Shown here piece after piece: positions 3,686 through 58,266 of a stretch of 64,000 nucleotides of DNA; within the stretch, counting starts at the first letter, position 1; every line of letters starts with the position of its first letter. Both the position numbers and the translations under genes were made by a program. The DNA is from a virus: IMG/VR virus record IMGVR_UViG_3300032315_000647, positions 32,001 through 96,000 of that record. One strand, given 5' to 3'. The notes beneath the pieces were generated by a model. That model saw nothing but the letters and a program-made list of their open reading frames with translations. It was not told where the DNA came from and searched no databases.

Positions 3686-3984
3686 GCAATCAATTTTTCT
3701 ACACTCGTAAAGAGTTGAAGAGCGGTACACCTGAGAATCCTGTGTACAATGTGTTTCGTGATAGCTTCAATGTGAACAAGGTGATACGCACCGTAGCTAT
3801 TGAAGATGGTAGAGTGATGGTGCTTCTGGATGATTTGCATGAGCGTGCACAAGATGTACCTGACATGGATGCTAAGACTAATAAGATTAAGGGGTATAAG
3901 CGTCAAAGGAACACCTTCCAGAGTGAGATATATTTGGAGGGAGAGGATGTCGAAAGGTTTTACATAACAACATCTATTAATTAA
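3682..3984 (+). CDS. hypothetical protein
   Basis: 100-aa ORF, translationally coupled on both sides. Confidence 0.75.
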   Translation: MSNQFFYTRKELKSGTPENPVYNVFRDSFNVNKVIRTVAIEDGRVMVLLDDLHERAQDVPDMDAKTNKIKGYKRQRNTFQSEIYLEGEDVERFYITTSIN

Positions 3985-4979
3985 TGAGACCTATTTTCTT
4001 CTACTGGGATGGTGGGATAAGCAATAGTAGGATGAAAGTCTTACAAGATTGTATGTATTCTACAAGAGTGCACAATCCTGAATGTCCTATTGTATTAGTG
4101 AGCAATAGTATATCAAGCAGTTCGTTTGATGACACTTATAGAATAAGTGTTATGAAATGGGACAGATCATTGATAATGCAATCTCCATTTCCAAAGGATA
4201 AGATTGATCTCTATCTGGATGGTGATAGGTGTATTACAGGTTATAGAGAGCTTTCTGATTTAATAAGATTGGCAGTTCTTTATAGATATGGTGGTTCCTA
4301 CATAGATACAGACGATCTTTGCATCAAACCTATTCCAGTAGAAGAAAATATTATTTGTCGTTCGTACGATCCTCACACTGCACATTACAATCTCGTAACT
4401 CCTGAAGATTGTATTCCTGGAGTGTACAGAGAAATACGTGGGTATGATCACATCAACTTCTTTCCAAGAAACGACTGTTGGTTAAACTTTGTACCAAAGC
4501 ATCCTTTGATACGTGATATATTAAGCAACCCTAAACTAAATGGGATAAACAAACCTGTTTATATTGGGGACGGATTCTCATGGCAATCTCTTACATTAGA
4601 GGCATGTATGAAATACATCATGCACATAAATGACATATTCAGAACATCTCTTACACTTCTCTATCTATTTGAGGATTTTGTGTCAGCAAGTTCTTTCTGG
4701 GACAGGTGTCATCATGGAGGAGAAATGTGTGATTTGTACAATGAAATATTTCCTGATCTTAAGGAATATGAATGGGGATTCTATAAGTGCACTAAAGACG
4801 TAGCAGAGAGATTCCTAGAAACAGTGATAGACAAATATCCTCATCTGTCACACATGTGGCTTCATAGAAAGGATGAGAATCCAGAATGGATGTTAGAAGA
4901 CCTAGATGCTGAAGGTAAGTATGCTGTATCTACATGGATTTATAAAATTCAAAAAGACAAAATAAAGAGCTATATATGA
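3984..4979 (+). CDS. DXD glycosyltransferase (GT32/Och1-like)
   Basis: IFFYW.G N-terminus; SDLIRLAVLYRYGGSYIDTD. Confidence 0.8.
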   Translation: MRPIFFYWDGGISNSRMKVLQDCMYSTRVHNPECPIVLVSNSISSSSFDDTYRISVMKWDRSLIMQSPFPKDKIDLYLDGDRCITGYRELSDLIRLAVLYRYGGSYIDTDDLCIKPIPVEENIICRSYDPHTAHYNLVTPEDCIPGVYREIRGYDHINFFPRNDCWLNFVPKHPLIRDILSNPKLNGINKPVYIGDGFSWQSLTLEACMKYIMHINDIFRTSLTLLYLFEDFVSASSFWDRCHHGGEMCDLYNEIFPDLKEYEWGFYKCTKDVAERFLETVIDKYPHLSHMWLHRKDENPEWMLEDLDAEGKYAVSTWIYKIQKDKIKSYI

Positions 4980-5668
4980 TTTCCGTATTGACACTAACAT
5001 ACAAGAGACCTCATCTTTTAGAAGAAGCTATTGAATCATTTCTTAGACAATACACCACTCATCCAAAGGAAATGGTTATCATAAACGATAACAAAGATGT
5101 AGACTATGTTTACAATCATCCTGATGTAACAATCATCAATTGTAAAGAAAGGTTCTCATCTGTATCTAAAAAACTTCAATGGGGATTTAGTCAGTGTAAG
5201 TATGATTACATTTACAGACTGGACGATGATGATTTGTTAACAGAAAATGGGTTACAGAAAGCTTGTGATTACATCATCAACAATCCAGGATATGATATAT
5301 ACAGAGCTTCTGGTTTCTATTTCTTTGTGAATAATAAACTAGATGGGTGGACAACTAGTATCAATAATGGAAACATCTATAGCAAAAGCTTTGTTGAAAG
5401 AATTGAGTTTCCTGATACATGTATAGGAGAAGATGCAGACATCACGTTCCATAAAGGAGGAACTTGGTGGGAACCAAAAGAGAAAGATGCAACAATGATC
5501 TACCGTTGGGGAATGGGAACACTTCACATATCAGGGATGGGGAATCAACCTAATGACATCATCTTAAACAAGGCTGATAAAGTGTTAGACAATAGAGTGG
5601 GTACAATAACGCTACATCCAAAGTTTTTATCAGATTATTATGAACAAATAAAAAAAGCCCCTATTTAG
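4976..5668 (+). CDS. GT2-family glycosyltransferase
   Basis: ISVLTLTYKR..L.EAIES; YIYRLDDDD; GED. Confidence 0.85.
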   Translation: MISVLTLTYKRPHLLEEAIESFLRQYTTHPKEMVIINDNKDVDYVYNHPDVTIINCKERFSSVSKKLQWGFSQCKYDYIYRLDDDDLLTENGLQKACDYIINNPGYDIYRASGFYFFVNNKLDGWTTSINNGNIYSKSFVERIEFPDTCIGEDADITFHKGGTWWEPKEKDATMIYRWGMGTLHISGMGNQPNDIILNKADKVLDNRVGTITLHPKFLSDYYEQIKKAPI

Positions 5669-6288: not shown

Positions 6289-6296
6289 TGTATATA

Positions 6297-6629: not shown

Positions 6630-6650
6630 TACTATCTATAATTTTAATTG

Positions 6651-6932: not shown

Positions 6933-6934
6933 AT

Positions 6935-7093: not shown

Positions 7094-7095
7094 GA

Positions 7096-7472: not shown

Positions 7473-7484
7473 ATATTATAGTTT

Positions 7485-8233: not shown

Positions 8234-8637
8234 TAGGATAGAGTTAGTAGATATTTTGTTTTAGCTGCTTCTCCACTTAGCGCATCAGCTAAATTAGCTA
8301 TATCGTGATAGCTGTTTGATTCAGCATATCTTTTTAAGTTACTAGAGAAGTCCATAAGTGCTGTGACAACTGAATTAGAGTCTGCACTACTCAATGCTTC
8401 TATTGTATATACACCAGGACGCTTACCTGTATAACCCATAAGCTTTTCTATCACACCATCTTTAAAGTCATGTACATAATCATACAATCCTCCAAGAGCT
8501 TGATGCTCAGCATAACTCTTTGTCTGCCAATGCAATAGATGTAGTTGCTCATGGAAATATGTAAGCTTCCCAGCTATTGTTTCCAAGTTTAGTTCTCCTG
8601 ATTTCATCATCTCTTCAGGGAATAATGATTTTGCCAT
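8233..8637 (-). CDS. ferritin/Dps-like four-helix protein (DUF5856-like)
   Basis: QLHLLHWQTKSYAEHQALGGLYD...D..IE..MG; KTKYLLTL end. Confidence 0.75.
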   Translation of the reverse strand: MAKSLFPEEMMKSGELNLETIAGKLTYFHEQLHLLHWQTKSYAEHQALGGLYDYVHDFKDGVIEKLMGYTGKRPGVYTIEALSSADSNSVVTALMDFSSNLKRYAESNSYHDIANLADALSGEAAKTKYLLTLS

Positions 8638-8651
8638 GTTGTTTGGTTTTA

Positions 8652-8924
8652 TTATCCAGGACTAGTTGTTGTTGTAGTTGTAGTAACAGGTCTAGTTGTT
8701 GTTGTGGTAGTTGTGCTAGTAGAAGTGCTAGTAGTAGTAGTTGTACTTGTGCTACTAGTAGATGTTGTAGTTGTTGTTGGATTACAACACTCATAAGCAT
8801 CAATTTCCTCCCAGTTACCTACAGCAGGCTTAAACCTATTGAGGATTAAACTACCAGAGATTACACGACCTGTACCATCATAACGTACAAATGCTTTTAA
8901 CGGTCTTTTATTTATACTTGCCAT
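8652..8924 (-). CDS. small protein with poly-Thr/Ser mucin-like tail (paralog A)
   Basis: ~48-aa domain ending ECCNP followed by ~40 aa almost all T/S. Confidence 0.8.
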   Translation of the reverse strand: MASINKRPLKAFVRYDGTGRVISGSLILNRFKPAVGNWEEIDAYECCNPTTTTTSTSSTSTTTTTSTSTSTTTTTTTRPVTTTTTTTSPG

Positions 8925-8936
8925 ATTATATTAGTT

Positions 8937-9212
8937 TTAAAGGGCTGTTGTAGTTGTGGTGGTAGTGGTTAGTTCTGCAGTGGTTGTGGTAGTAGTGGTA
9001 GTAGGAGTTCTAGTAGTACTAGTTGTAGTAGTAGTAGGTACACCTGTGGTGGTAGTAGTGGTAGTAGGATTGCAGCACTCATATGCTGGTATCTCTACCC
9101 AATTACCAACCTTAGGTTTCTTTCTTCTTAGAATCAGGCTGCTAGGAACGATTCTCCCAGTACCATCAAAGCGTACATAAGCTTTGAGAGGGCGTTTGTC
9201 AATTGATGCCAT
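8937..9212 (-). CDS. small protein with poly-Thr mucin-like tail (paralog B)
   Basis: N-domain MASIDKRPLKAYVRFDGTGR...YECCNP nearly identical to 8652-8924; poly-Thr tail. Confidence 0.8.
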   Translation of the reverse strand: MASIDKRPLKAYVRFDGTGRIVPSSLILRRKKPKVGNWVEIPAYECCNPTTTTTTTGVPTTTTTSTTRTPTTTTTTTTAELTTTTTTTTAL

Positions 9213-9214
9213 GA

Positions 9215-10231
9215 TTAGTAATTTAAATTATACTTGTTAAATAATGTTTTCAGTTCATTTGCGTAATACCATGTGCATCTTTTCTTGGAATTCTCATCAT
9301 TTAGAATAACATCTAAATGAGGATCTTTTGAAGGATCTGCACCTGTATGATATTTACCTTTATAGAAACAGTTATAACCATCCATAAAGGTGTTTACAAT
9401 TCCTGCATTATGAAGAATAGGATGAGTTTCTAGTTTTTCCACCATGTCAGGACTCCAACTAAATCCCATTTCAGGAATAATCTTTACATCCTTTCCTCTC
9501 ACCCAAAGATTCCAAAGAACTGCCCACATATCTGCACACCAACTTTGAAATCCTTTATTCTCATTTTCAAAATACAACTTGTTTATATGCTGTAGATATC
9601 TCCTAATCAGTATGCAATCATTCATCACCTTGCTCCAAAAGTCTGCATCTATATTCTTAAGGAGATATTGAGCTCCACCACTATCATCATTCTTTCCCTC
9701 AGCTTCCTCTCTACTAATACCAATTACGCTACCTATCTCAGCAAGGATGTCTCTTGTTTTGTATTCATCAAGTTTTTCAGGAAGTACATCCCTCACCTTG
9801 CTATCAAAATAGGAAGCTCCAATGTAGCTCACTGTATCAGAAACATAACAAACATCATCATTAATAAACTGTTGAACATCAAACTTTTCTGTAAAAAGAA
9901 TGTCTGAGTCACAGTAGAATATAGCTTGGTTGCTTAATTCAGGATGTTCTCTCCAGTGTCTCCATAATGTATAAGGTCGTAACACTGGAATATACACACC
10001 TAATTGTGAACTAATTTGATGTTCATCTTTGTAAAAATGAAACTCAGCTTCTGGATATAAGTCCACTATCTGTTTCCAATTCTCATTCTTCTCTCTAAAG
10101 TTGGGAGTGAACACTAGAACAATTGCTTTGTCTGATTCATTCCTTTTCTTCAGACTTTCCAACCACAGATGCACTTGCCATGTGTAATAAGTGTCATCTG
10201 GCTGAACGCATACATACTTCAGATCCTTCAT
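9215..10231 (-). CDS. GT-A glycosyltransferase resembling plant HPAT/SERGT (GT95/GT96) peptidyl O-glycosyltransferases
   Basis: YYTWQ, VLRPY..W.HW, FYCDSDILF (DxD), WCADMWA, HNAG in the same order as HPAT/SERGT motifs. Confidence 0.6.
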   Translation of the reverse strand: MKDLKYVCVQPDDTYYTWQVHLWLESLKKRNESDKAIVLVFTPNFREKNENWKQIVDLYPEAEFHFYKDEHQISSQLGVYIPVLRPYTLWRHWREHPELSNQAIFYCDSDILFTEKFDVQQFINDDVCYVSDTVSYIGASYFDSKVRDVLPEKLDEYKTRDILAEIGSVIGISREEAEGKNDDSGGAQYLLKNIDADFWSKVMNDCILIRRYLQHINKLYFENENKGFQSWCADMWAVLWNLWVRGKDVKIIPEMGFSWSPDMVEKLETHPILHNAGIVNTFMDGYNCFYKGKYHTGADPSKDPHLDVILNDENSKKRCTWYYANELKTLFNKYNLNY

Positions 10232-10295
10232 AATGTAGTTTATTGGTTTATAAAAAATTTGCGAAAGATAGCGTTTTTCACTACTTTTCGCAAAA

Positions 10296-10442
10296 TTAAG
10301 GTGTTATTGTGGTGGTGGTTGTGGTGGTGAAGTTACCATTTGCTTGAGCTAGTTGACCAGAGATTTTCTCTAGCTGCTTACTAATTTGCCACAACAGATT
10401 CTCTGTAGTGCCCCAACCTATTCCTCTAGATGGTATTGGCAT
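10296..10442 (-). CDS. 48-aa Thr-tailed protein, paralog of the N-terminus of 10457-11041 (not in ORF track)
   Basis: MPIPSRGIGWGTTENLLWQISKQLEKISGQLAQANGNFTTTTTTTITP. Confidence 0.8.
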   Translation of the reverse strand: MPIPSRGIGWGTTENLLWQISKQLEKISGQLAQANGNFTTTTTTTITP

Positions 10443-10456
10443 TATCTTATATTTTA

Positions 10457-11041
10457 TTATCCAACATTAAATATGGAAAGGTTAACAGATGGAGATGCAG
10501 GTCTAGTTGGATTACTTCCTGCAGCAGTTGGTAAAAGTCTCATACCAGTGGCTTGTGACCACCAATAAAACTTAAGATATTGTCCAGCAGTCAATGGGAT
10601 TGTATCTGTTATTTTTGCAAGTGTCTGATCATTTTGTGCTCCAGTGGTAGTGAATGTAAATGCTGAATTAGGCACAATTACATCATTAACCGTATACCAA
10701 ACAGTTACATTATAATTTGATGCACCACCTGTAAATGCAAGTTGAAGACCAAGACTTAAAAAGTAAGTTCCTGCATTAATAACATCTATTCTATTACTAG
10801 TCAATGTAAACCCATTAGCAATTTGTGTTGAATTAATTAACACCTGATTAGCTGTGGTTGCTCCACCATTTGTTTGTAAGGTGGTATCAAAAAAGGTTGC
10901 AGAATAAAGACTAACTTTTGATGCAGCAATGTTGTCGTTAAGGGTACAGAGCTGACAGCTAGCTTGCTCCATTTGCTTAGCAATCTGCCACAACAGGTTG
11001 TCCTGTGTGCTCCAACCGATCTGTCTTGATGGAATAGCCAT
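10457..11041 (-). CDS. putative virion appendage protein with C1q/BclA-like beta-sandwich C-domain
   Basis: N-term MAIPSRQIGW..NLLWQI helix; AGTYFL..., L.AGQYLK, TRPASPS C-terminal pattern. Confidence 0.6.
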   Translation of the reverse strand: MAIPSRQIGWSTQDNLLWQIAKQMEQASCQLCTLNDNIAASKVSLYSATFFDTTLQTNGGATTANQVLINSTQIANGFTLTSNRIDVINAGTYFLSLGLQLAFTGGASNYNVTVWYTVNDVIVPNSAFTFTTTGAQNDQTLAKITDTIPLTAGQYLKFYWWSQATGMRLLPTAAGSNPTRPASPSVNLSIFNVG

Positions 11042-11048
11042 AAGTAAA

Positions 11049-11136
11049 CAAAACTATGATGTTTATAATAAAAAACAATGAACCTTAGTAAATTGTAATA
11101 ACGAAATAGGTTAAGCAACTCTAACTAAACTTATTA
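11049..11136 (-). promoter_or_regulatory. -7 promoter element with tandem TAAC-N7-GTTA boxes
   Basis: TAGTTTTG on minus (11049-11056); TAACgaaatagGTTA 11099-11113, TAACtaaacttATTA 11122-11136. Confidence 0.55.
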
Positions 11137-12793: not shown

Positions 12794-15700
12794 ATGCCTA
12801 ATAGTTATACATTCTTTAAAGCTGAAATTAGACAGTGGTTTATTGATAATATTCCTTCTGATACAAGGATTTTAGATGTTGGTCCTGGTCAAGGCACTTA
12901 TTCAGATTTACTTAGAGATCTTGGATATAGAATAGATGCTGTTGAGATATGGGCTCCCTATGTAGAACAGTTTAACCTCAGGGCCAAATATGATAATGTT
13001 TATGTAAAAGACATATTGAACTTTAATGTTAGCTCTTACGACTTTATTATTCTGGGAGATGTATTAGAACACATTCCTACAGAAGATGCTCAGGAACTTC
13101 TTACCAAGTTCGATTTGATGGAAAAGAGATTCATGGTTGCTGTTCCTTACATGATGCCTCAAGATGGAGCAGAATACGGGAATGAGCATGAAACTCATCA
13201 TCAGGAAGACCTTACGCCAGATGTAATGTTAGAACGTTATCCAGGACTAGAGAAACTTTATGATAATCAGTGGTATGGATATTATGTAAACGTTGACACT
13301 AGGTTTGAGAAAGCCTATGTTTTATATGCTACAGAGAGTTATAAAGACACTGTACAAGCATGTGTTTATTCTATAAAAGCATATAGTAAGATTCCTATAA
13401 TTGTTTACATGCTCAACTCAGATGAAGAGATCAATGGAGCTGTTACAATAAGTTGGGACTGCAAAGTTAAAAATGTTCCTCAGCAGAAGTATATCAATAG
13501 AGATGACAGAGATATATACAACATACTGATACAAAGACCAGCTATTGTAAAAGATGCTCTTAAATATGCTAAAACTGTAGCATATGTGGATAGTGATAGT
13601 GTAGCCACTAGGTTTGTAGATAGAATGTTTGATCTCTATCCTACTAAATCTACTCATCCATATTTTACAGAAGGTATTTATGAATGGATGCATCACAATG
13701 GTAGAGGAGGTGCTGAAAGTATGGATGATCTAAGTACAACGTTAGAGCATCCAGCTTGTGAGTTGTTTGGTGTAAACCAGTATGTTAGAAAGAAATACGT
13801 ACAGACAGGATATTTTGTAGCTGGACAATGGTGTAAAACATTCTTAGAAGAGTGGCAGTGGATGTGTAATCATCCTAAGGTTGTAAAAAATCCACAATAC
13901 TATGCCCCTTATCATGAAGAAACTATAGTTAATGTCCTCCTTTGGAAGTATGATGTAAATGATGGGCTTCCATACATATACATCAATGGGTCTTTGGACG
14001 TAGTGAATAGCTCAGAGTTTACAGGACAAAAAGAACACATAGGACATTTCATCGCCACTCCTGCAGAAAAGAAAGACCTGTTGTTCTATCATGGAGAAAA
14101 AGATCCTCTTACAATGTACAGAATGTTGGAACGTATGAAGAATAGACCTAATATATTGTTTCTAGCTCCTCATCTATCTACAGGTGGTATGCCAGCTTTC
14201 TTGTTAAAGAGAATAAAGGCATTGATGCAATTCACTGATGTAGAAATAGTTGTTGTGGAATATGCCAATCATAGCGATGATTATGTGGTCCAGAAGAACC
14301 AGATAAGAAACTTAGTGAAGTATTTCTATACACTAGGTGAGAACAAGATGGAAGTGATAGACATTATCAAAAAACATGGAATAGATGTAGTGCACATTGA
14401 TGAGATGGTAGAAGATGGTTGGAATAATTGGCCAGAAGAACTTAGGGAAGCTTTGTATGTAGATGACAGAGCTTGGAGAGTAGTGGAGACATGTCATAAT
14501 ATTGTATTCAATCCAGATATTGAAAAGCGCTATCACCCAGATGCATATGCATTCTGTACTCCCCATCACTTGAAAACATTTGCTAACATGCCTTCTAGAA
14601 AGGAAGTGATTGAGTTTCCTATAGAAAGGAAGGATGATATAGCTCTCAATTTTGGTAAAGGTTATCATGTATTGAATGTAGGACTATGGACCCCTGGCAA
14701 AAACCAAGGAGAAGCTGTAGAGCTGGCTAAACAAATGCCAGATGTACAGTTTCACTTTGTAGGTAATCAGGCTGGTAACTTCCAACACTATTGGGAACCA
14801 ATCATGAAAGATCTTCCTTCTAATGTGCATGTGTGGGGAGAGCGTGATGATGTAGGTAGCTTTATGAAAGGATGTGATGTCTTCATGTTCAACAGTACAT
14901 TTGAGTGTAATCCGTTGGTAATTAGGGAAGCTATAGGATATGGTAAACCAATTCTTGCAAGAAATCTTCCTCAGTATGGAGATATGTTCACTAAGTATAT
15001 TACACATCTAGAGCCTGATAGGATGAAAGAGCAATTGTATGACTTATTGAAAAATGATACCACTTACACTATTCCTGAGAATCAAACAGAGGAATTTGGT
15101 AAGCGTCACTTACAGTTATATCAGGAAGTTGTAAGTAATGGTTGTCAAACTGACGTTGAAAACATTACAATTGCTCATTATTTTGTTCATGAACCTTTCT
15201 TGGAAATAACAGGAAACTCTGATAGTAAGTTTACAGTGAAATATTTTGATGAGAGTGGTAAGTGTTATTATGATAATGTAATAGGAATTAATAGTTGGGT
15301 GAGAATCAACAGAAGATGGTTTACTAGATGGACAATAAAAATATGGAAGGATGAAGAGATGTATTATGAATACACTCTTAATTACGAGAATCAACGTGTT
15401 TATATATCCTTTGATAGTAAATCGTTAGGAGATACAATAGCATGGATGCCTTATGTTCTTAAGTTTAAGAAGAAACATAACTGTCATGTTATAGTGAGCA
15501 CATTCAAGAACTTCCTCTTTAAAGATGTCTACCCAGAACTTGAATTTGTAGATCCTGGTTCAAGAGTAGATAATATTTTTGGAATGTACACATTAGGTTG
15601 GTTTTATAATCCAGATAAAGAACCTGAACTTTGTAACACTATTCCTCTTCAGAAAGCAGCATCTAACATCTTAGGTGTTGATTATCAGGAACTCAAACCA

Positions 15701-16216
15701 CGGATAGCATTTACACCTAGTAACAAATTATATGATAAATTTGTTACAATAGCTACTAATTCCACAGCTGCTTGTAAGTTTTGGACTAAGGAAGGATGGC
15801 AAGAAGTTATTAATTTTCTCCACGAGAAGGGATATAAAGTGATAAATGTATCTATAGAAAGGAACTCATTTGACAACTGTGAGCAACTAGAAGATACATC
15901 TATGGAGAACACTATGAATACTATTCATCATAGTGAGTTTTTCATAGGACTTTCTAGTGGTTTGAGTTGGTTAGCCTGGGCTCTGGATAAGAAAGTGGTT
16001 ATGATAAGTAACTTTACAGAAGCTGATCATGAGTTCCAATGTATCAGGGTGAGTAAAAAGGATGTGTGTAATGGATGTTGGAATAAATCACACAACAGAT
16101 TCAATCCAGGAGATTGGTATTGGTGCCCTGAACATAAAGGAACAGACAGACAATTTGAATGTCACACATCAATAACAGCTAGTGATGTTATTAATCAAAT
16201 ACAACATTTGTTATGA
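12794..16216 (+). CDS. multidomain enzyme: class I SAM methyltransferase + GT-A + GT4-like + TibC/Aah-like O-heptosyltransferase
   Basis: LDVGPGQG and DVLEH; YVDSD; PHLSTGG..KNQ..ECNPLVIREA; SKSLGDTIAWMPY, FFIGLSSGLSWLAWA, CNGCWN..WCPEH..FEC. Confidence 0.8.
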   Translation: MPNSYTFFKAEIRQWFIDNIPSDTRILDVGPGQGTYSDLLRDLGYRIDAVEIWAPYVEQFNLRAKYDNVYVKDILNFNVSSYDFIILGDVLEHIPTEDAQELLTKFDLMEKRFMVAVPYMMPQDGAEYGNEHETHHQEDLTPDVMLERYPGLEKLYDNQWYGYYVNVDTRFEKAYVLYATESYKDTVQACVYSIKAYSKIPIIVYMLNSDEEINGAVTISWDCKVKNVPQQKYINRDDRDIYNILIQRPAIVKDALKYAKTVAYVDSDSVATRFVDRMFDLYPTKSTHPYFTEGIYEWMHHNGRGGAESMDDLSTTLEHPACELFGVNQYVRKKYVQTGYFVAGQWCKTFLEEWQWMCNHPKVVKNPQYYAPYHEETIVNVLLWKYDVNDGLPYIYINGSLDVVNSSEFTGQKEHIGHFIATPAEKKDLLFYHGEKDPLTMYRMLERMKNRPNILFLAPHLSTGGMPAFLLKRIKALMQFTDVEIVVVEYANHSDDYVVQKNQIRNLVKYFYTLGENKMEVIDIIKKHGIDVVHIDEMVEDGWNNWPEELREALYVDDRAWRVVETCHNIVFNPDIEKRYHPDAYAFCTPHHLKTFANMPSRKEVIEFPIERKDDIALNFGKGYHVLNVGLWTPGKNQGEAVELAKQMPDVQFHFVGNQAGNFQHYWEPIMKDLPSNVHVWGERDDVGSFMKGCDVFMFNSTFECNPLVIREAIGYGKPILARNLPQYGDMFTKYITHLEPDRMKEQLYDLLKNDTTYTIPENQTEEFGKRHLQLYQEVVSNGCQTDVENITIAHYFVHEPFLEITGNSDSKFTVKYFDESGKCYYDNVIGINSWVRINRRWFTRWTIKIWKDEEMYYEYTLNYENQRVYISFDSKSLGDTIAWMPYVLKFKKKHNCHVIVSTFKNFLFKDVYPELEFVDPGSRVDNIFGMYTLGWFYNPDKEPELCNTIPLQKAASNILGVDYQELKPRIAFTPSNKLYDKFVTIATNSTAACKFWTKEGWQEVINFLHEKGYKVINVSIERNSFDNCEQLEDTSMENTMNTIHHSEFFIGLSSGLSWLAWALDKKVVMISNFTEADHEFQCIRVSKKDVCNGCWNKSHNRFNPGDWYWCPEHKGTDRQFECHTSITASDVINQIQHLL

Positions 16217-16881
16217 GAGAGTTTCTATGGGAACCTGAATGTTATCCAGGATTTAGAGAGCATGTAGAAAAAGAAATCTTTGTAGATAGAATCTATGAGA
16301 GATATTTTGAGGTTGAGAAAGGGGATGTTGTGTTCGATGTTGGTGCTAGTCTAGGACCATTCACCTATTCAATACTTGAAAAACAACCTTCTCATGTCTT
16401 TGCATTTGAACCAAGCTTTGAGGAATATAAGACGTTAGTGTTGAACACTCGTAAAGGACCTGTTACACATATTAACAAGGGTGTATCAAATCATATTGGA
16501 GAATTCAATTTTGAATATGTGTTCAGTGTTGGTGAGAATGAAATACAGTATTCAACCACCTTCAAAAAAGTGATTGATGATTACAATATTCAAAAGATAG
16601 ACTTTCTAAAAACAGATTGTGAAGGAGGAGAATATGATATATTCAATCTGGAAAACCTTATTTGGATTAAACAGAATGTCAGAAAGATTGCTGGTGAGTG
16701 GCATTTAGGAACTCCAGAATTGAAAGATAAGTTCAGAGTGTTTAGAGACACCTATCTTAGGATGTTTCCTAATTTTAAGATTAGATCTTTCAATGGATTC
16801 AATGTTGAAGAAAATCTTTGGACAGAACCATTTATTGAAGTGTTCACTGAACTCATCATCTATATTGATAATAGGCACTAA
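16213..16881 (+). CDS. FkbM-family methyltransferase
   Basis: VVFDVGASLGPF, AFEP, IDFLKTDCEGGEY, GEWH. Confidence 0.88.
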   Translation: MREFLWEPECYPGFREHVEKEIFVDRIYERYFEVEKGDVVFDVGASLGPFTYSILEKQPSHVFAFEPSFEEYKTLVLNTRKGPVTHINKGVSNHIGEFNFEYVFSVGENEIQYSTTFKKVIDDYNIQKIDFLKTDCEGGEYDIFNLENLIWIKQNVRKIAGEWHLGTPELKDKFRVFRDTYLRMFPNFKIRSFNGFNVEENLWTEPFIEVFTELIIYIDNRH

Positions 16882-17320
16882 TCTTTTTGTAAACAAAATT
16901 GTTTACTAAGTGTAAACAATACTGTATAGGTAGGGAGGATGTATCAATATGTAGAACATCCTCCCCCTCTATTGGTTTTTCAAAATCTTTAACTTGATAA
17001 TCTTCTTTTTCTCTATCTTCTTCATAAGTCAAATAGATCCAAGAAACATCACTTGTTAAAGTTCTTAAATAGTCTCTGGCTTCCTTATAAGGATAGACAA
17101 GTGATAGGATTACATTCTTTCCTGTACTATTTAGGAAGTGGGCTATATCACTAGCCCTGTTCAGGTTCTTGATTCTTCCTTCTCTAGAATAGTCTTTGTT
17201 TGCAAACAATTCTCTCAAAGCATCACCATCTATATTCACATATGTACTATCGTTAGCCAATATCTGACTTGCTAATGTGGTTTTTCCACTACCAGGTTGT
17301 CCAAATAGTACGATTATCAT
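16856..17320 (-). CDS. cysC: adenylylsulfate (APS) kinase-like
   Basis: GQPGSGKTTLA, IDGDALR, DYSREGR.KN, SLVYPY..R, FEKP. Confidence 0.78.
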   Translation of the reverse strand: MIIVLFGQPGSGKTTLASQILANDSTYVNIDGDALRELFANKDYSREGRIKNLNRASDIAHFLNSTGKNVILSLVYPYKEARDYLRTLTSDVSWIYLTYEEDREKEDYQVKDFEKPIEGEDVLHIDTSSLPIQYCLHLVNNFVYKKISAYYQYR

Positions 17321-18132
17321 TTGTAGTTGAATCTATTAAAATACCATTGAAAGTTATCTTTTATCCATTTACAAACGTCAGCTCCTAATATTTTTTGAGC
17401 ATCGCTTCTTAAAGGTTCCACTTTCTTTCTAATTGTATGATCTCCAAAGATTCCATGAATTTCATCATCTTCCTGTGTCACTTGCTCTACATTATCAAAA
17501 TCATGAATGAAGTCTTCAATTCCAAGATATTGATATAACTGTGTCATTGTTGTCTGTGGATAGAGACACAAGTCTTCATACTTTATAAAATGAATATGTT
17601 TATCAATTCCTTGTCTGAATATTTCATTTAGTCTTTCAATTGCAAGTCCTACAGGAGGACCTGCTAACCATGCATCAATTCTTTTTGGTGTGGTAGTTCC
17701 TTGACCTGTTGTCCAGTTGAGAATCTTATCTTGCTTATCAGGATGTTTCCTAAAGTTTTTCTCCATGCTACAGAAGATATCTCGTAAGTCTCTTACCATA
17801 CAAACTATCTTAGGTTGAGGATATACAAAGTTGAGAAAATCATAATGTATTCCCCATCCTCTAGACTTGTCTAGAATATATCTTTTGTCTGTAATTGCAT
17901 TGTAATATCCTTTAAGACCTTCATGACAAAAGCCTTTAAAAGCTTCCTTCATAATAGCAGGATCTTGAGCTTTGAACTCACCGCTGTCTGTGTAATTAGA
18001 TCTTGCTGCATAAATCAGTTCAAGTACACCGCTGGTAGGAGTACAATAAAAATCAGGTCTCTGTGCAACAATGTTTTGCAAAAGAGTGCTACCAGTTCTT
18101 GGAAGTGAACTCTGAAAGAATATTTTCTCCAT
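17317..18132 (-). CDS. PAPS-dependent sulfotransferase
   Basis: LPRTGSTLL (5'-PSB loop), DKSR.W, VRDLRDIFCS (3'-PB), IKYEDL. Confidence 0.87.
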   Translation of the reverse strand: MEKIFFQSSLPRTGSTLLQNIVAQRPDFYCTPTSGVLELIYAARSNYTDSGEFKAQDPAIMKEAFKGFCHEGLKGYYNAITDKRYILDKSRGWGIHYDFLNFVYPQPKIVCMVRDLRDIFCSMEKNFRKHPDKQDKILNWTTGQGTTTPKRIDAWLAGPPVGLAIERLNEIFRQGIDKHIHFIKYEDLCLYPQTTMTQLYQYLGIEDFIHDFDNVEQVTQEDDEIHGIFGDHTIRKKVEPLRSDAQKILGADVCKWIKDNFQWYFNRFNYK

Positions 18133-51931: not shown

Positions 51932-54900
51932 TTAACATGATAGGGTTCCACAACTATTAGCAGAAGATTGTGCTGTAACATAAGGAGAAGTTGGTGAAGT
52001 CTCTGGACCAAGTTCATATTGGTATCCATCATCACCACAAACCCAAGATTGTGTAATAGGTGATAGGGAGTATATAATTGATTCATTCACCCCACCATTC
52101 TGTACACAGTTCAAGTATTGTGTAGCAAGATAGTAACGTTCTCCAGCAGTTGTAGTTGTTGTAGTTGTGGGTGGTTCTGTTGTAGTGGTAGTGGTAGTTG
52201 TTGCAGAACAATCAAACACACTTATTATTACACCACTTGAATTAGTTTCATAACAAATATTGTTGTATGTATAAGCTATTGTCTGATAGGGTGTTCCATT
52301 TGAATTATACAATATACAACCTAATACAGGAACCTGACAGTTTGAATATTTATCACCTGTTGGAATTCTTGCTAATGGTACAGGGCAACAATTTAAGTTC
52401 TTACCTATATATCCATCAACTAATAAATACAACACTGTTGTAGTTGTAGTGGTTGTTGTAATATTACTATTTTCACAATCTACACAAGTCTCATATACTG
52501 TCGATGGTACATTTGCAATTGGTTCACCACTAGATGTGTCAGTGATGAGCCAACATTTTCCATCATAAAAGAAACTCTGTCCAACAATTCCTCCATCATT
52601 TGATAAGAAGAGCGCATTTTCAAGAGGATTGCTACACCATTGAGCGTTATAAATATATTCAATTAGTTCTGTAGTAGTTGATGTGGTTGTAGATGTGGAA
52701 CTAGAAGTTGTAGAACTTGTTGTTGTAGTTGTTACTTCAATAGTTGTTGTAGTGGTTGTGGTCGTAGGTTCAGTGGTGGTTGTTGTGGTGGTTGTGGGAG
52801 ACTCAGTAGTGGTGGTAGTAGTGGTTACAGGTTGTGTGGTTGTAGTGGTGGTAGTTGTTATAAATTCTGTAGTTGTAGTTGTTGTAGTGGTAATAGGTTG
52901 TGTTGTACTAGTTGTTGTTGTTACAGGTTCAACAGTGGTGGTGGTTGTTGTAGTTGCAGGTTGAGTTGTAGTGCTAGTGGTTGTAGTTGTGATAGGTTCA
53001 GTTGTGGATGTAGTAGTTGTAGTAGTAATGAGTTCTGTAGTTGATGTAGTGGTGGTAGTAGAAGGAGGTTCAGTGGTAGTAGTAGTTGTAGTGGTTGGTA
53101 ATTCTGTTGTTGTAGATGTTGTTGTAGAGGGCATATTAGTTGTTGATGTAGTGGTTGTAGTGGTTGATGATGATGTACTTGTGGTAGTTGTTGTTACACA
53201 ACTATTTTGACATTCAGTCGTACCACCTGTAATGATCAAACCTGTACCTGAAGGAATGTCCCTACTACATACATTTATAGATGAACCATTGTCAAGAATC
53301 TCAGTTGTGGTTACACCTGAACAACAATCAGTCCACTGAGCAGTTTGTTGCACACCACTTGAATTCAGGATGCTGTATTCATAGCAAACTAAAGGTGCTT
53401 CGGTGGTAGTGGTAGTGGTTGTAGTTGGTGTTTCTGTTGTGGATGTGGTTGTTGTTGTGGGTGTTTCTGTAGTGCTACTAGTTGTTGTTGTAGTGATAGG
53501 TGCGATGGTTGTGGATGTAGATGTAGTGGTGGTGGTGATTGGTGGAATTGTTGTAGTTGTTGTTGTGGTTGGTTCTATAATTGTGGTTGATGTGGTAGTA
53601 GTGGTAATTGGTGATTCAGTTGTACTTGTAGTGGTTGTGGTTGGAACTTGAGTTGTTGTTGTACTAGTTGTAGTGGTAGAAGAGGATGTAGTTGTTGTGC
53701 TTGATGTGCTAGTGGTAGTAGTGGTGGTGCTGCTTGTAGATGTTGTAGTAGTTGTAGATGTACTACTGGTTGTAGATGTAGATGTGTACTGTATAGCAGT
53801 GGTTGTGCTCGTGGTACTAGGAATAGGACCAGGAGTTCCCAATATTACATCAAAATCATCACAACATCCATTTATACCAGAATAGAAGAAATTGTTTTCT
53901 CCTATGTACCAGTTTGGCAGATAGCTATGGAAGCTTATCCAACTTTTTGTATTAAAGTTAAAAGATACTGTCCAACTTTTATTACAGAAATATCTGTCAT
54001 CTGTTAGATATATCACCTCACGTATGGAAAGTGAATCGTACATTTTATCAATGTAGAATTCATTCTCTTCAGCATCATATTTTACATCAGTGGTCTTTGG
54101 AATATAATCAAGTTTTGTAATAATCACCCTATCATACTTACTATCATATACACCATGTAAACCAACTCCTGTGAAATGATTATCTGTAGGTACATTAGGA
54201 AAGTAACGCAATATTTCAAAAGCAAGATGGTCTGTAAAGAACCTGTTCATTCCTGATCCGAATGCAGATAGATCTACAGCTTGTGTACCAGTGATTAAGA
54301 AAACTTGACCACGTTTAGCATCTATTGTCACTTGTCCTTGAGGAATCTTCAGTAACATTTTGTTCTGTGTTCCTACATATCCCAAATCTGTTTCTGCAAA
54401 ATCAATAGGAGGTGCACCTCTAAAGAGTGTAGGGCTTCCTACGTATGCAGCTTGAGGATTGCTTGTATCTATCGTAAGGAGGTTATTATACATAAGTGTC
54501 TTGTTCTCAAAGCGAGCAAGAACAGCTTTGTTTTGAATTCCATCTAACGATATAAGATTGCCATAGTTTTGAGGAAAGTCATAATAAGACAGAGGTCTGT
54601 ATATCAACCAACTATTCACTCTGTTATCAGAATCAATGTTCTGAGGATCAGAATACACTGCTCTGAAGGGATAATATGTGAAACAAGGTTTATCCCAATC
54701 AACTGGCAGATGAGTGAATGTGTTTTCTCTATTCTGTTTAGAATATGTGGTGTTATAGTAATACGTATTGTCCTGAGCAATGGGTACAGAAGTTTCTTGG
54801 AGCCAACTATCAGGAATTGCTGAACTAACACGAGGCCAGAAGTCTCCTTCTGCATTGTTGAATGCTTGGCGTAAATCTACGTTTACAGAGGATTCACAAT

Positions 54901-57900
54901 AGAAGTTAGGGATACCGTATGCAAACAGATACATCTTTCCATCATAAAATGTTCTGTCAGGGTTTAATACTGGAGGAGTGGCGTTAGGATCAGGCTTGGG
55001 AAATTGACTATTTGGACAGTCAAAATAATGTGCCTTTATAGATATGATGTTAGTTAATGGATCAAGTGCTACAGTGGGATCAAAATTAAAAAGTACAGAC
55101 CTTGCTGAAAACCAATATTTAGGATAGGCCACATTACCTATTTCATCATAGAATATATCACTGTCATCAGGAGCTCCCACTCTATTGTCTATAAAGAAAG
55201 GAAGCTTTGTCTTGAATGTAAATCTATTAATAAATGTATCACCACCAAACACAACATCGGTGTTAGGAGTGGTGTTATCAAGAAGTTGTTGATATCCTGT
55301 ATCTATTGTTTCATAAGAATATATCTGTCCCCATTGGTTAGGGAAGATAGTTTTCATACTTCCGTAATAAGAAACAACCTTTATTTCAGACTGTTTCTCT
55401 GGTGAGGAGCATAGATTTCTTTGTGAAACCGTATATCTAGAATCATCAGTGATAGCAGGAGTTATTCCTCCAACAAGAAGGTTTGGTGTGTTTTGTGCAT
55501 ACGGTAGTGCAGATAACGTTTCCTTTGTTTTTATATATACAGAGGATTCTCTATTGTAATTGTTTACATCAAGATCATCTCCTGTGTTTTGAACACCTGG
55601 AATCAAATATCTAGCAATGTCTAGAGATCTTTGTTTAACTCCTAAGTTGTTATCAACGTTTGCTGAATAGTCATAGTTAGCTATGCTATTGAATGAATAA
55701 GTGTAGTTCCTTCTAGTGATGCCGTTGATGTATATAGAGAGATATGCTTGATATGCAGTGAATAGTGCAACAATATCAGTGCCTGCTATATTTTCACTAG
55801 ATGTTAAAGCATCTAACTGAGCTTGGTATGAAAGAAGTTTGTACAAAGCATGTTCTTGCACTTGTACATGATGACCTCTTCCTGCACCAAATATAGCACT
55901 CTCAATCTTCAGAACATTTCCTAAGAAAGGTTGTCCAAAGGATGTTTCAGGAGAATTGAATACATATCTATATTTAGAGGAATCAGTATCGAAAGCCTTC
56001 AGTTGATTTGGAAGACAGTATTCATTAGCACCAACACTTCCATCAGACAGTTGTCTAATAGTGTACCCTCCTACATGCGATCCTACACTAGGGGATGTTC
56101 CAATTTTAACTTGTAAAGTTCTGTTCTGTCTTGTAAGTAGTAAAAATGATTGTACATTATTGTATATATCTACATACGAGAAGTTTGCAAATATACCATC
56201 ACATGATACATAATATGTATCGTATTGTAGTACAATTGGATCTGCTAAAAATGTACCACCGCTACCAGGAACAGGAACAGGTGTGGTTGTTGAACACTGT
56301 GTATATTTTTGGTTAGCAAACATTTCTGCTGTCTGCAAACTATTGTCAGAACAGCTTGTATATTCATAATATCCACTTGTTGCACAAGTGAATTCAAATG
56401 TCAGACATTCTTCATTGTAAGCATTGTTTTCCTCTAACAAGAAAGGATCTTCTCTAAGATCATTATATGGATAGTTAGGAAAGTAGTATTCTGTTTCTTC
56501 TCTCTTATACTTACCAATATTCCTCAGTATTCCCTTTGCTACAATAGATTTATTAGTGGATCTGTTACCTCTAACTATCTTGAATCCAGCAATGTTTTCT
56601 TTTTGTTCAACTGTAAGATTTGATAGAGAAATCAAAGATTCTATCTGACTGATGTCAATCTTCACTCCTATTGGGAATACACTCACATCCTGCATAACAA
56701 CAGGAATATTTGGAGAAAGAGTGTAAGCCCCACTTTCAAATATAGGACTAACAAGAACATCAGGAAACTTGTGGTGTCTGATGGGAGTGTTTGCAAGATC
56801 ACCCCACACTTCCTTATTGCAAGGGTAGAGATCTGTGGATTCCCAATATGCAAAATCTCCATATTGATATGGAGTGGCATTACCAATATTAACTCCTGTT
56901 GCAGACCCTGTTACAGATGCAGTGTTATAGATCTTCCAATAAGGAGAATATCCCACACCACCAGATGTGTAATCAGGAGTGCCTATGAAATCAGGATTTG
57001 TATCAGGAACATCTGGTTGAGAAAGCTCATTTGCATTCTTTATTCTTCCTGGGATGTGGAATCCGTCTGTTTGTTTACCATTCTTAAGTAGGAACACTAT
57101 TTCAAAAGCATACACTTCATCTCTTAGATAACCTCTAAGATTAGTGGCATTCAACTCATCTGCATAGTTTTCATCTGCAGGAAGTTTGTATGTTTGCCAC
57201 TGAAGAGATATTTGATTAGCAATGCCTTGATAGTTTACACGATCAATAGATGTAAGATTGTCCCATATCAAAACATCTTGTGCATTAGTGATGTCTTGTG
57301 CAACATCATAGTATGGGAACTTTTCAAATACATCATCAATACTTAAACGGATCTGTGTAACATTCTGACCTGTGTAAGTGATTTGTCTTTGTACGTCATT
57401 AATATCATACGTTCCTACCAACTCTACAGAGGTGATAGCATTTATTGTTTTAATGACAGCCAGATTGAAATTCTGGTAGAGACCAGTGTCCTCAAGATTT
57501 GAAACATTGATAATAATGGACTTTCCAACAGGATAGTTGAAATTCGGTGTTGTTATGAACTCATCAGCAATTGGTGTTGGGTTTGTAATAGAATAATATG
57601 ATGTATAAGGATTGCCTTGAGCATCACTATATTGTATTGCAAATTGATAAGTACCAGCAATTAGATTTCCTGTACTCGTAACATCAACTATTTCTAATTG
57701 AGGAATCTTGAAATTAGGTTGAATCTTGAGTTGATTACAATCAAGATCATCTGTGTAACTAGCGCTACAGAAGGGAGTTCCAGACTTTAAGATCTTTGGA
57801 ACATTATCAATATCTAAGTATCTTCTAGAATTATATCCGTCAGTCCAATATATTTCAGTGCTACAGTTTGTTATTCTGTGCGCCACCTTATGAATTGGAT

Positions 57901-58261: not shown

Positions 58262-58266
58262 TGTAA

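What the first reader, a model, noticed from the sequence alone, without database searches (positions are those of the whole stretch)
8652..10442. Plant HPAT/SERGT-like peptidyl O-glycosyltransferase flanked by three Thr-tailed mini-proteins
Seen: 9215-10231 carries YYTWQ, VLRPY..HW, DSD and WCADMW. From memory these follow the order of the plant hydroxyproline O-arabinosyltransferase and peptidyl-serine galactosyltransferase motifs (Y..WQ, NRP/NKP..W, DxD, W..EMY). It is directly flanked by two paralogous ECCNP-poly-Thr proteins and an unannotated 48-aa Thr-tailed protein. Inference: an enzyme-plus-substrate cassette for mucin-type O-glycosylation of phage proteins, which would be unusual for a bacteriophage.
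Basis: partly seen in the sequence, partly recalled or inferred. Interest (0 to 1): 0.85.

Follow-up and report, generated by a model that had tools for sequence, protein, structure and literature searches.

The report
Phage sugar-transferase with poly-threonine carrier proteins
A crAss-like phage encodes an uncharacterised sugar-transferring enzyme wedged between tiny proteins that are little more than an anchor plus a run of threonines, and across unrelated phages this enzyme family travels with such threonine runs on capsid, tail and fibre proteins, so it very probably sugar-coats the virus particle, although nobody has shown this at the bench.

Summary
All four ORFs, the quoted motifs and the Thr tails are at the stated coordinates.

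- **HPAT link.** This is weak. One relative scores just under the Pfam HPAT cut-off. The window protein does not hit that model at all.
- **Enzyme-plus-substrate reading.** This is well supported by comparison:
  - In 129 loci, 51% of the genes flanking the enzyme carry poly-Thr, against 3.9% of the other genes.
  - The pairing recurs in 9-11 of 12 enzyme clusters, from Bacteroidota-type phages to Enterococcus, Lactobacillus and Lactococcus phages. In the Firmicutes phages the Thr tails end major capsid and tail proteins.
  - Enterococcus capsid orthologues with the Thr tail have the enzyme next door. Orthologues 81-84% identical without the tail lack it genome-wide.
- **This window.** The carriers are two modular anchor families, ECCNP and a helix shared with a BclA/C1q-like fibre. 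More glycosyltransferases, methyltransferases, an APS kinase and a sulfotransferase lie nearby.

No paper was found on this family. This scan has already reported the same pairing in at least eight other genomes. No biochemical evidence exists.

The parts
9215..10231 (-). 338-aa soluble GT-A glycosyltransferase of phrog_4417, with DxD at D108-S-D110. Proposed initiating O-glycosyltransferase for poly-Thr tracts.
8937..9212 (-). 91-aa carrier protein: a 49-aa ECCNP N-module followed by a 42-aa Thr-rich tail.
   Evidence: The ECCNP module family has 117 distinct proteins in 85 loci. In 81 of them a Thr run follows AYECCN[PY] directly, and 65 end right after it.
8652..8924 (-). 90-aa paralogue of the ECCNP carrier, with a Thr/Ser-rich tail.
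   Evidence: 76% identical to 8937-9212 over 49 aa. T-run codons are mixed.
10296..10442 (-). 48-aa carrier: a 37-aa helical N-terminal anchor module plus a TTTTTTTITP tail.
   Evidence: 62% identical to the N-terminus of the 194-aa protein. The module family has 112 distinct proteins. In 71 a Thr run follows. Others carry collagen-like GTS repeats or globular domains.
10457..11041 (-). 194-aa fibre protein: the same N-terminal anchor helix plus a C1q/TNF-like (BclA-like) trimeric knob.
51932..58270 (-). 2112-aa crAss-type muzzle (tail) protein. Its C-terminal third holds about 400 aa of poly-Thr blocks and is a likely further acceptor.
   Evidence: PF25731 crAss_MUZ E 1.1e-29 on residues 16-340. 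Thr blocks at residues 1485-2041. T7-run hits.
61882..62979 (-). 365-aa Cys-rich protein with a roughly 100-aa poly-Thr/Ser linker after an ENCC motif. A likely further acceptor.
   Evidence: No PHROG or NCBIfam hit.
12794..16216 (+). 1140-aa fusion of methyltransferase, GT-A-like region, GT4 and GT9-like domains. Candidate glycan-extending and modifying enzyme.
   Evidence: Pfam: Methyltransf_11/23, Glycos_transf_1 E 1e-10, Glyco_transf_9 E 1e-8. Its GT-A-like region is not a paralogue of the 338-aa enzyme (hhalign probability 3%).
16213..16881 (+). FkbM-family methyltransferase. Candidate sugar O-methyltransferase.
   Evidence: TIGR01444 E 4.7e-15. PF05050 E 2e-8.
16856..17320 (-). APS kinase (PAPS supply).
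   Evidence: PF01583 E 2.3e-13.
17317..18132 (-). Sulfotransferase. Candidate glycan sulfation enzyme.
   Evidence: PF13469 E 7.6e-19 and PF00685 E 1.5e-10. NoeE-like, E 3e-8.
3984..5668 (+). Two further glycosyltransferases: DXD Gly_transf_sug (3984-4979) and GT2 (4976-5668).
   Evidence: PF04488 E 1.5e-11 and PF00535 E 4.2e-15.

Best explanation
The 338-aa protein is a soluble, cytoplasmic, metal-dependent GT-A glycosyltransferase. During late infection it puts the first sugar, from a host nucleotide-sugar pool, onto the hydroxyl groups of threonine runs in phage virion proteins.

In this phage the acceptors would be:
- three minimal carrier proteins encoded around the enzyme: two ECCNP-module proteins and a 48-aa protein that shares its anchor helix with a BclA/C1q-like fibre;
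- the poly-Thr blocks of the tail muzzle protein;
- the poly-Thr linker of a 365-aa Cys-rich protein.

The other glycosyltransferases, methyltransferases, APS kinase and sulfotransferase encoded within about 10 kb plausibly extend and decorate these glycans. The result would be a mucin-like glycan brush on the particle.

What is shown: the fold, the conserved DxD/His residues, and the tight, repeated genomic coupling of enzyme and poly-Thr tract.

What is inferred: that Thr is the acceptor, that the enzyme initiates the glycan, that the linkage is alpha (retaining), that the neighbouring enzymes work on the same glycan, and that the carriers sit on the virion.
For: Fold and active site:
- AF2 pLDDT is 97.2. 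The first beta-strand starts at residue 4, so there is no room for a signal peptide or membrane anchor.
- Best solved-fold matches are retaining GT-A enzymes: AgtA 13.9, glycogenin 13.8, LgtC 13.6, UGGT 13.2, GlyE 12.8 (Foldseek).
- D108, D110, H274, Q229 and K291 are invariant in 57 diverse members.

Coupling to poly-Thr:
- In 129 loci, 130 of 256 genes flanking the enzyme have at least 7 Thr in 12 residues, against 73 of 1887 other genes. 100 of 129 loci have such a neighbour.
- The pairing holds in 9 of 12 enzyme clusters at 50% identity. Two more (Semele, SAC12B) were missed only by the gene-picking or the Thr threshold.
- In the window's own clade the neighbour is mostly less than 50 nt away, and its size varies from 44 to 688 aa.
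- In Firmicutes phages the Thr runs sit at the C-termini of the major capsid protein (4995_1, iLp84, phiFL1A gp45, 1706 orf10), the major tail protein (phiFL1A gp50, iLp84_14) and small decoration-like proteins. The enzyme gene follows directly.

Gain and loss contrast:
- Four Enterococcus capsid genes with the tail all have the enzyme immediately downstream.
- Four orthologues, 81-84% identical but without the tail, and two distant ones lack it. The four genomes lack it entirely.
- The family is present in only 1 of 401 sampled Bacillota genomes.

Initiating role:
- Five of these phages have no GT2 or GT4 gene, so the enzyme is the only recognisable glycosyltransferase there.

Glycan-building context:
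- Family members occur fused to GT2, GT6, GT7C, GT25, GT29, DXD-GT and methyltransferase domains.
Against: - There is no biochemical evidence anywhere for this family. No glycan has been detected on any of these proteins.
- Fold similarity does not identify the acceptor. LgtC (lipooligosaccharide) ties with the protein-linked enzymes.
- About a fifth of the loci show no adjacent poly-Thr gene. That includes a whole two-member cluster (L094/L095), several loci of the P0246 set (L122-L126) and phage bIL285, whose adjacent capsid protein has no tail.
- Many of the 129 loci are close relatives, so the raw counts overstate independence. The Enterococcus contrast is effectively one gain or loss event.
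- The background rate was taken from the same loci, not from phages in general.
- The neighbouring sulfation and methylation genes may serve another target.
Confidence: 0.7

Rival explanations
1. The poly-Thr tracts are glycosylated, but a host enzyme or another phage enzyme puts on the first sugar. The 338-aa enzyme only extends the glycan.
For: Several top fold matches (AgtA, GlyE, UGGT, LARGE1) extend protein-linked glycans and do not start them. This phage has at least four other GT domains.
Against: phiFL1A, 4995_1, iLp84, 1706 and Semele have no GT2 or GT4 gene, so this enzyme is the only recognisable phage GT beside the Thr tails. Virion proteins fold in the cytoplasm. From general knowledge, cytoplasmic poly-Thr O-glycosylation is not a general host activity in Enterococcus, Lactococcus or Bacteroidota. 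The enzyme and the tail are gained and lost together.
Confidence: 0.1
2. The Thr runs are plain flexible linkers or spacers that carry no sugar. The enzyme acts on a non-protein target such as host envelope polysaccharide, teichoic acid or LPS (for example for superinfection exclusion or receptor masking). Its position next to Thr-rich genes reflects shared late-operon modules.
For: Thr/Pro-rich linkers are common in Bacteroidota secreted proteins (general knowledge). LgtC and WbbM, which build LOS and O-antigen, are among the tied fold matches. Some loci lack an adjacent Thr tract.
Against: This does not explain why a C-terminal Thr tail on capsid and tail-tube proteins appears exactly where the enzyme gene is inserted, in Gram-positive siphophages, herelleviruses and crAss-like phages alike. 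It also does not explain proteins that consist only of an anchor and a Thr tail. A C-terminal tail links nothing.
Confidence: 0.12
3. The enzyme glycosylates phage DNA (a hypermodified base), as the T-even glucosyltransferases do.
For: Phage-encoded glycosyltransferases are classically DNA-modifying (general knowledge).
Confidence: 0.02

Closest known systems
Mycobacteriophage virion glycosylation (Che8, Corndog, Myrna; Freeman et al. 2023, Cell Host Microbe 31:1216, as summarised in PMC12363180 and PMC12582341)
   Same: Phage-encoded glycosyltransferases modify the phage's own virion proteins. In the Firmicutes relatives of this enzyme, the presumed acceptor is a C-terminal extension of the capsid and tail-tube subunits. 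From memory, that is where the mycobacteriophage glycans sit.
   Different: The enzyme family differs. tblastn of the 338-aa protein finds 77 phage records, none from a Mycobacterium phage. Here the tag is a near-pure poly-Thr run. In this window it sits on dedicated mini-proteins, a fibre family and the tail muzzle, not on the capsid. Nothing here has been shown experimentally.
Plant and algal hydroxyproline O-arabinosyltransferases (HPAT; CAZy GT95; Pfam PF23452) and peptidyl-serine alpha-galactosyltransferase SGT1/SERGT1 (GT96)
   Same: Both are proposed to put the first sugar directly on a hydroxy-amino acid in a repetitive, extended, mucin- or extensin-like tract. Both have a GT-A fold with DxD. 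HPAT is the only glycosyltransferase Pfam family to reach E 1e-4 on the catalytic domain of any scanned member: P0242, 21.9 bits, aligned over 220 of 307 profile positions. One neighbouring ESM Atlas cluster has HPAT on 10% of its members.
   Different: The window protein does not match PF23452 at all. The model also misses the Enterococcus prophage member. The phage enzyme is soluble with no N-terminal anchor, whereas the plant enzymes are Golgi type II membrane proteins (general knowledge). The presumed acceptor is Thr, not Hyp or Ser. No structure of either plant family appeared among the listed matches to compare with.
Retaining GT-A enzymes of the GT8-like structural group: glycogenin, LgtC, GlyE (GT8), the UGGT catalytic domain (GT24) and AgtA (Skp1 alpha-galactosyltransferase)
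   Different: Sequence identity is 9-13% and no Pfam GT8 hit is found. TM-scores are only about 0.45. About 80-100 extra residues of helical insertions are present. These are fold neighbours, not family members.
BclA / F-BclA exosporium and ENA-tip glycoproteins of the Bacillus cereus group
   Different: The anchor and the enzymes differ. The setting is a phage, not a spore. The 48-aa member has no knob at all.

Membership tests
phrog_4417 (phage protein family of unknown function) | Significant full-length match to the family profile | tested here: met
   E 4.9e-54, residues 4-329 on profile positions 1-290 of 293.
Pfam PF23452 HPAT / CAZy GT95 | Score at or above the Pfam gathering cut-off (23.9 bits) | tested here: not met
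   No Pfam hit at E<=1 for the window protein. No HPAT hit in the whole phage genome at E<=10. The best family member, P0242, scores 21.9 bits, E 1.3e-4. In total 2 of 57 members (E<=1) and 1 of 84 (E<=0.01) reach the threshold used in each scan. The model finds nothing in 401 Bacillota genomes, including one that holds a family member.
Pfam PF23452 HPAT / CAZy GT95 | GT-A fold with a DxD metal and nucleotide-sugar site | tested here: met
   Model pLDDT 97.2. GT-A matches. D108-x-D110 invariant.
Pfam PF23452 HPAT / CAZy GT95 | N-terminal membrane anchor (type II Golgi protein) | tested here: not met
   The first Rossmann-type beta-strand begins at residue 4, and the whole chain is one compact globular domain.
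Pfam PF23452 HPAT / CAZy GT95 | Hydroxyproline acceptor and UDP-L-arabinofuranose donor | not testable with these tools
   Needs enzyme assays. The neighbouring tracts are Thr, not Pro/Hyp.
CAZy GT96 (SGT1/SERGT1) | Sequence or fold similarity to a GT96 member | not tested
GT8-like retaining GT-A group (GT8/GT24) | Fold similarity over the whole catalytic domain | tested here: met
   [not shown]
GT8-like retaining GT-A group (GT8/GT24) | Sequence membership (Pfam Glyco_transf_8 or similar) | tested here: not met
   No Pfam family at E<=1. No PDB sequence match with a single sequence or with the profile.
GT8-like retaining GT-A group (GT8/GT24) | DxD plus downstream His metal triad, and a retaining mechanism | tested here: inconclusive
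   D108, D110 and H274 are invariant, which fits the pattern. No residue-level superposition was available and stereochemistry cannot be computed.
Phage virion protein glycosylation system (mycobacteriophage type) | Phage-encoded glycosyltransferase encoded with virion proteins that carry a dedicated acceptor extension | tested here: met
   Adjacency statistics and the capsid contrast.
Phage virion protein glycosylation system (mycobacteriophage type) | Homology of the enzyme to the mycobacteriophage enzymes | tested here: not met
   tblastn against 50,697 phage records returns 77 hits, none from a Mycobacterium phage. More sensitive profile or fold comparison with Che8 gp110 was not done.
Phage virion protein glycosylation system (mycobacteriophage type) | Glycans demonstrated on virion proteins | not testable with these tools
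   Needs mass spectrometry or glycostaining of virions.
C1q/TNF-like BclA-type fibre knob (for the 194-aa neighbour) | Jelly-roll fold matching BclA-type C-terminal domains | tested here: met
   [not shown]

The most novel reading that the evidence does not exclude
This crAss-like phage builds a genuine virus-encoded mucin mimic. Minimal carrier proteins (a virion anchor plus a Thr tail), fibres and the tail muzzle would be O-glycosylated in the cytoplasm by a phage-specific initiating enzyme. That enzyme would be the viral sister of the plant HPAT/SGT1 extensin glycosyltransferases. The glycans would then be extended, methylated and sulfated by the phage's own toolkit, including its own PAPS supply. 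More widely, the poly-Thr tag plus this enzyme would be a mobile two-part cassette that has repeatedly converted capsid, tail-tube and fibre proteins of unrelated phages into glycoproteins.
Probability: 0.3. Interest if true: 0.85.

Novelty: new variant of a known kind. Interest (0 to 1): 0.75.

Why it matters
If the prediction holds, O-glycosylation of phage particles is not a peculiarity of a few mycobacteriophages. It would be a widespread trait that can be recognised from sequence. The trait would be marked by a simple tag (a run of threonines) plus one small enzyme, and it would occur in phages of lactic acid bacteria, enterococci, staphylococci and environmental Bacteroidota.

- **Interpretation of existing data.** It would change how capsid and tail masses, antigenicity, stability and adsorption are read for these phages. 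Dairy and therapeutic phages are included.
- **A possible tool.** It would provide a compact tag-and-enzyme pair for cytoplasmic protein glycosylation.
- **An enzyme family.** It would give a function to phrog_4417, which currently has none. The family has at least 758 clusters at 50% identity and at least 2726 at 90%.
- **This genome in particular.** It also raises the possibility of sulfated glycans on a phage particle.

Tried and rejected
- **Sequence searches for a solved relative.** Both the single sequence and the 57-sequence profile found nothing meaningful in the PDB.
- **NCBIfam.** It has no model for the enzyme or the carrier proteins.
- **Pfam HPAT model.** It finds nothing in the phage genome. 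It finds nothing in 401 Bacillota genomes either, even though one of them contains a family member. HPAT membership cannot be claimed. This tool also rang in none of its control genomes, so the negative result is weak.
- **Paralogy within the window.** I tested whether the GT-A-like region of the neighbouring 1140-aa fusion is a paralogue of the 338-aa enzyme. It is not (hhalign probability 3%).
- **IMG/VR scans.** The scan with the full 57-sequence alignment failed for lack of a conserved block. Three scans with single distant representatives (P0129, P0140, P0236) found no loci. These lineages therefore remain untested for the poly-Thr pairing.
- **Frequency in bacteria.** A sample of 401 Bacillota genomes yielded no new prophage copies beyond the one already known. 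That gives a frequency but no extra lineages.
- **Nucleotide-sugar synthesis.** No epimerase/dehydratase or nucleotidyltransferase gene was found in the phage genome. The identity of the sugar cannot be guessed from the gene content.
- **Promoters and terminators.** The scans around the cassette were no better than shuffled sequence.
- **Literature.** Seven searches found no paper on this family or on poly-Thr tags in phages. The primary paper, Freeman et al. 2023, is not held and is cited second-hand.
- **Not examined.** The ECCNP module was not folded and its place on the virion is unknown.
Full report
**1. What is in the sequence**

The window is bases 32001-96000 of a complete 114,745-bp virus record with direct terminal repeats. 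On the minus strand, packed head to tail with gaps of 2 and 12 nt, lie five genes in this order:
- a 194-aa gene (10457-11041);
- a 48-aa gene (10296-10442);
- the 338-aa gene of the finding (9215-10231);
- two paralogous genes of 91 and 90 aa (8937-9212 and 8652-8924).

The two small paralogues share a 49-residue N-terminal module ending in AYECCNP (76% identity) and then consist almost only of threonine. The 48-aa protein shares its first 37 residues with the 194-aa protein (62% identity) and ends in TTTTTTTITP.

A whole-genome scan for seven consecutive Thr codons gives 30 hits, all on the coding strand and in only five genes. These are the three mini-proteins, a 2112-aa protein and a 365-aa protein. 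The reversed-pattern control gives none. The runs use mixed ACA/ACT/ACC codons, so threonine is selected at the protein level.

**2. The enzyme**

The 338-aa protein has no Pfam, NCBIfam or PDB sequence match. It is a clear member of phrog_4417, a phage family of unknown function (E 4.9e-54).

The family is large. There are 2726 clusters at 90% identity and 758 at 50% identity. Records that name it call it a hypothetical protein.

With a 57-sequence alignment, AlphaFold2 gives a very confident model (pLDDT 97.2). It is a single compact domain whose first beta-strand begins at residue 4, so it is a soluble enzyme without a signal peptide or anchor.

Foldseek and an exhaustive structural search agree on a GT-A fold. 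The closest matches are retaining enzymes of the GT8-like group:

|---|---|
| AgtA (Skp1 alpha-galactosyltransferase) | 13.9 |
| glycogenin | 13.8 |
| LgtC | 13.6 |
| UGGT catalytic domain | 13.2 |
| WbbM | 12.9 |
| GlyE | 12.8 |
| LARGE1 | 12.7 |

They are ties, and sequence identity is about 10%. The result places the enzyme in a structural neighbourhood, not in a family.

D108, D110, H274, Q229 and K291 are invariant across the family. This fits a DxD-plus-His metal site.

Among predicted viral structures, the only close matches are other uncharacterised members, such as Lactobacillus phage LP65 Orf49. GT8-like proteins of giant viruses follow.

**3. The plant HPAT idea**

- HPAT (PF23452) is the only glycosyltransferase Pfam family to reach E 1e-4 on the catalytic domain of any scanned member. 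Only one of the 140 distinct members scanned (P0242) does so, at 21.9 bits against a cut-off of 23.9. The alignment is colinear over 220 of 307 profile positions.
- A neighbouring ESM Atlas cluster has HPAT on 10% of its members.
- The window protein itself gives nothing.
- The HPAT model misses the Enterococcus prophage member when searched over that genome.
- Neither plant family appeared among the listed structural matches, and no AlphaFold database was on hand.

I therefore treat remote kinship as possible but undemonstrated, and formal membership as not met. The phage enzyme also lacks the membrane anchor of the plant enzymes.

**4. The link to poly-threonine**

This is the strongest part of the case.

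*Cultured phages.* Homologues occur in 77 phage records from Lactobacillus, Enterococcus, Staphylococcus, Lactococcus, Clostridium, Chryseobacterium and others. The gene directly upstream of the enzyme ends in, or contains, a Thr run in each of these:
- phiFL1A major tail protein;
- Semele gp075;
- Chryseobacterium phage MA9V-3, a 429-aa protein;
- iLp84_8;
- 1706 orf13, a major structural protein;
- 4995_1 major capsid protein.

SAC12B has TTVKP repeats instead. Whole-genome scans of five of these phages show that runs of seven Thr codons fall in only a few genes, and most sit at the C-termini of capsid and tail-tube proteins or in the small protein next to the enzyme. Examples are phiFL1A gp45 (capsid position) and gp50, iLp84 capsid and tail protein, and 1706 orf10 and orf13.

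*Uncultured phages.*
- In 80 IMG/VR loci of the window's own clade, the enzyme is almost always flanked within 50 nt by Thr-tailed genes of very variable size.
- The same holds in two sets of distant lineages found with P0242 and P0246. There the neighbours are 1000-1330-aa proteins, 45-aa tails and again ECCNP-Thr proteins.

*Pooled counts.* Over 129 loci, 130 of 256 flanking genes are poly-Thr, against 73 of 1887 other genes in the same loci. Nine of twelve enzyme clusters at 50% identity show the pairing. Two more were missed only by my gene-picking or Thr threshold.

*A natural gain and loss experiment.*
- Enterococcus capsid genes ending ...LDISALG-TTTTTTKPTTTTTTTQA are followed at once by the enzyme (4 of 4).
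- Orthologues 81-84% identical that end ...LDITNLAPASK have no such gene downstream or anywhere in their genomes.
- The family is otherwise rare, found in 1 of 401 sampled Bacillota genomes.

*Caveats.* Many loci are close relatives. The Enterococcus contrast is one event. About a fifth of the loci, and phage bIL285, lack an adjacent Thr tract.

**5. What the small flanking proteins are**

Both belong to modular families.

*ECCNP module.* It occurs in 117 distinct proteins in 85 loci. In 81 of them a Thr run follows AYECCN[PY] directly, typically as blocks of seven Thr separated by AAP, VAP or ATP. 65 proteins stop there. The others continue into globular domains.

*Helical 'LLWQISKQLE' module.* It occurs in 112 distinct proteins. 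It is followed by a Thr tail (71 cases), by collagen-like GTS repeats, or by globular domains.

*The 194-aa member in this window.* It folds into an N-terminal helix plus a C1q/TNF-type jelly roll. The closest matches are:

These are therefore fibre-like proteins with a shared attachment module and exchangeable distal parts. The mini-proteins are the minimal version, an anchor plus a Thr tail. A Cys-Cys pair directly before the Thr run recurs (ECCNP-T, GKCCV-T, ENCC-T) and is unexplained.

**6. The wider setting in this phage**

The 2112-aa Thr-rich protein begins with the crAss-type tail muzzle domain (PF25731, E 1e-29). The phage is therefore crAss-like, and its tail carries about 400 residues of Thr blocks.

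Within about 10 kb of the enzyme lie:
- a DXD glycosyltransferase and a GT2 (3984-5668);
- a 1140-aa fusion of methyltransferase, GT-A-like region, GT4 and GT9-like domains (12794-16216);
- an FkbM methyltransferase;
- an APS kinase overlapping a sulfotransferase.

No nucleotide-sugar synthesis gene was found, so the donors must come from the host.

Elsewhere, family members are fused to GT2, GT6, GT7C, GT25, GT29 (sialyltransferase-like), DXD-GT, methyltransferase and radical-SAM domains. This is what one expects of an enzyme that starts a glycan which others extend. In five small or unrelated phages the enzyme is the only recognisable glycosyltransferase. That favours an initiating role over an extending one.

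**7. Most likely mechanism**

Late in infection the soluble enzyme binds a host UDP-sugar through its DxD/His site. It transfers the sugar, probably with retention of configuration, to Thr hydroxyls in extended Thr runs of newly made virion proteins. In this phage further enzymes would extend, methylate and perhaps sulfate the chains.

Likely benefits are a hydrated, protease-resistant, non-sticky or antigen-masking coat. These are speculative.

I put 0.7 on the core claim that the enzyme glycosylates the Thr tracts of phage proteins. The rivals are:
- extension only, with another enzyme starting the glycan (0.1);
- unglycosylated linkers with a non-protein target for the enzyme (0.12);
- DNA modification (0.02).

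**8. Comparison with what is known, and novelty**

Virion glycosylation by phage enzymes is established for mycobacteriophages Che8, Corndog and Myrna (Freeman et al. 2023, read second-hand in PMC12363180). The enzyme here is not detectably related to those, and the tag is a pure Thr run.

No paper on this family or on poly-Thr tags in phages turned up in seven literature searches.

Earlier notes of this same scan report the same enzyme-poly-Thr pairing in at least eight other genomes, with the same reading. Those are unchecked AI notes and are not independent evidence. My own tests agree with them.

What this window adds:
- the minimal carrier proteins and their two anchor families;
- the BclA-like fibre link;
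- the crAss muzzle acceptor;
- the sulfation genes.

I class the finding as a new variant of a known kind, with high interest because it is widespread, simple and directly testable.

Noticed in passing
window 16856-18132 (-): An APS kinase (PF01583, E 2e-13) overlaps by 4 nt a sulfotransferase (PF13469, E 8e-19; weakly NoeE-like). Together they would give a phage-encoded PAPS supply plus a sulfotransferase, next to the glycosyltransferase genes. Sulfated glycans on a phage would be unusual.
   Followed up: partly
window 51932-58270 (-): The 2112-aa protein starts with the crAss-type muzzle domain (PF25731, E 1e-29), which marks the phage as crAss-like. Its C-terminal third consists of Thr blocks interrupted by small Cys-containing domains.
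   Followed up: partly
window 8775-8790, 9065-9080, 62700-62740; loci L101-L104: A Cys-Cys pair sits directly before many Thr runs (ECCNP-T, GKCCV-T, ENCC-T), in lineages where the enzyme is only about 30% identical. Its role is unknown. It could be a recognition element, a metal site or a disulfide.
   Followed up: no
window 12794-16216 (+): A 1140-aa fusion of methyltransferase, GT-A-like region, GT4 and GT9 (heptosyltransferase-like) domains, transcribed divergently from the lysis genes. Its GT-A-like region is not related to the 338-aa enzyme (hhalign probability 3%).
   Followed up: partly
[not shown]
   Followed up: yes
proteins P0125-P0274 (family representatives): Family members occur fused to a GT29 sialyltransferase-like domain, to GT6, GT2, GT7C, GT25 and DXD-GT domains, to several methyltransferases and to a radical-SAM/SPASM domain.
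   Followed up: partly
L111 (Lactococcus phage bIL285), L094, L095, L122-L126: These are exceptions to the pairing. The enzyme gene is present but no Thr run lies in the flanking genes. In bIL285 the adjacent capsid protein has no tail. It was not checked whether Thr tracts lie elsewhere in these genomes.
   Followed up: no
window 5759-7652 (-) and 11134-11259 (-): A row of very small Lys/Arg-rich ORFs (41-130 aa) lies just downstream of the cassette. No family match was sought.
   Followed up: no
window 8233-8637 (-) and 11259-11678 (-): A Dps-like DUF5856 protein (E 2e-14; phrog_858, 'starvation-inducible regulator') lies directly after the carriers. A peptidase M15 endolysin (E 5e-15) lies upstream of the fibre gene.
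   Followed up: no
window 19408-20112 (-): A 234-aa protein with a concanavalin A-like lectin/glucanase domain (PF13385, E 1e-7) stands between the sulfation genes and the giant structural genes.
   Followed up: no
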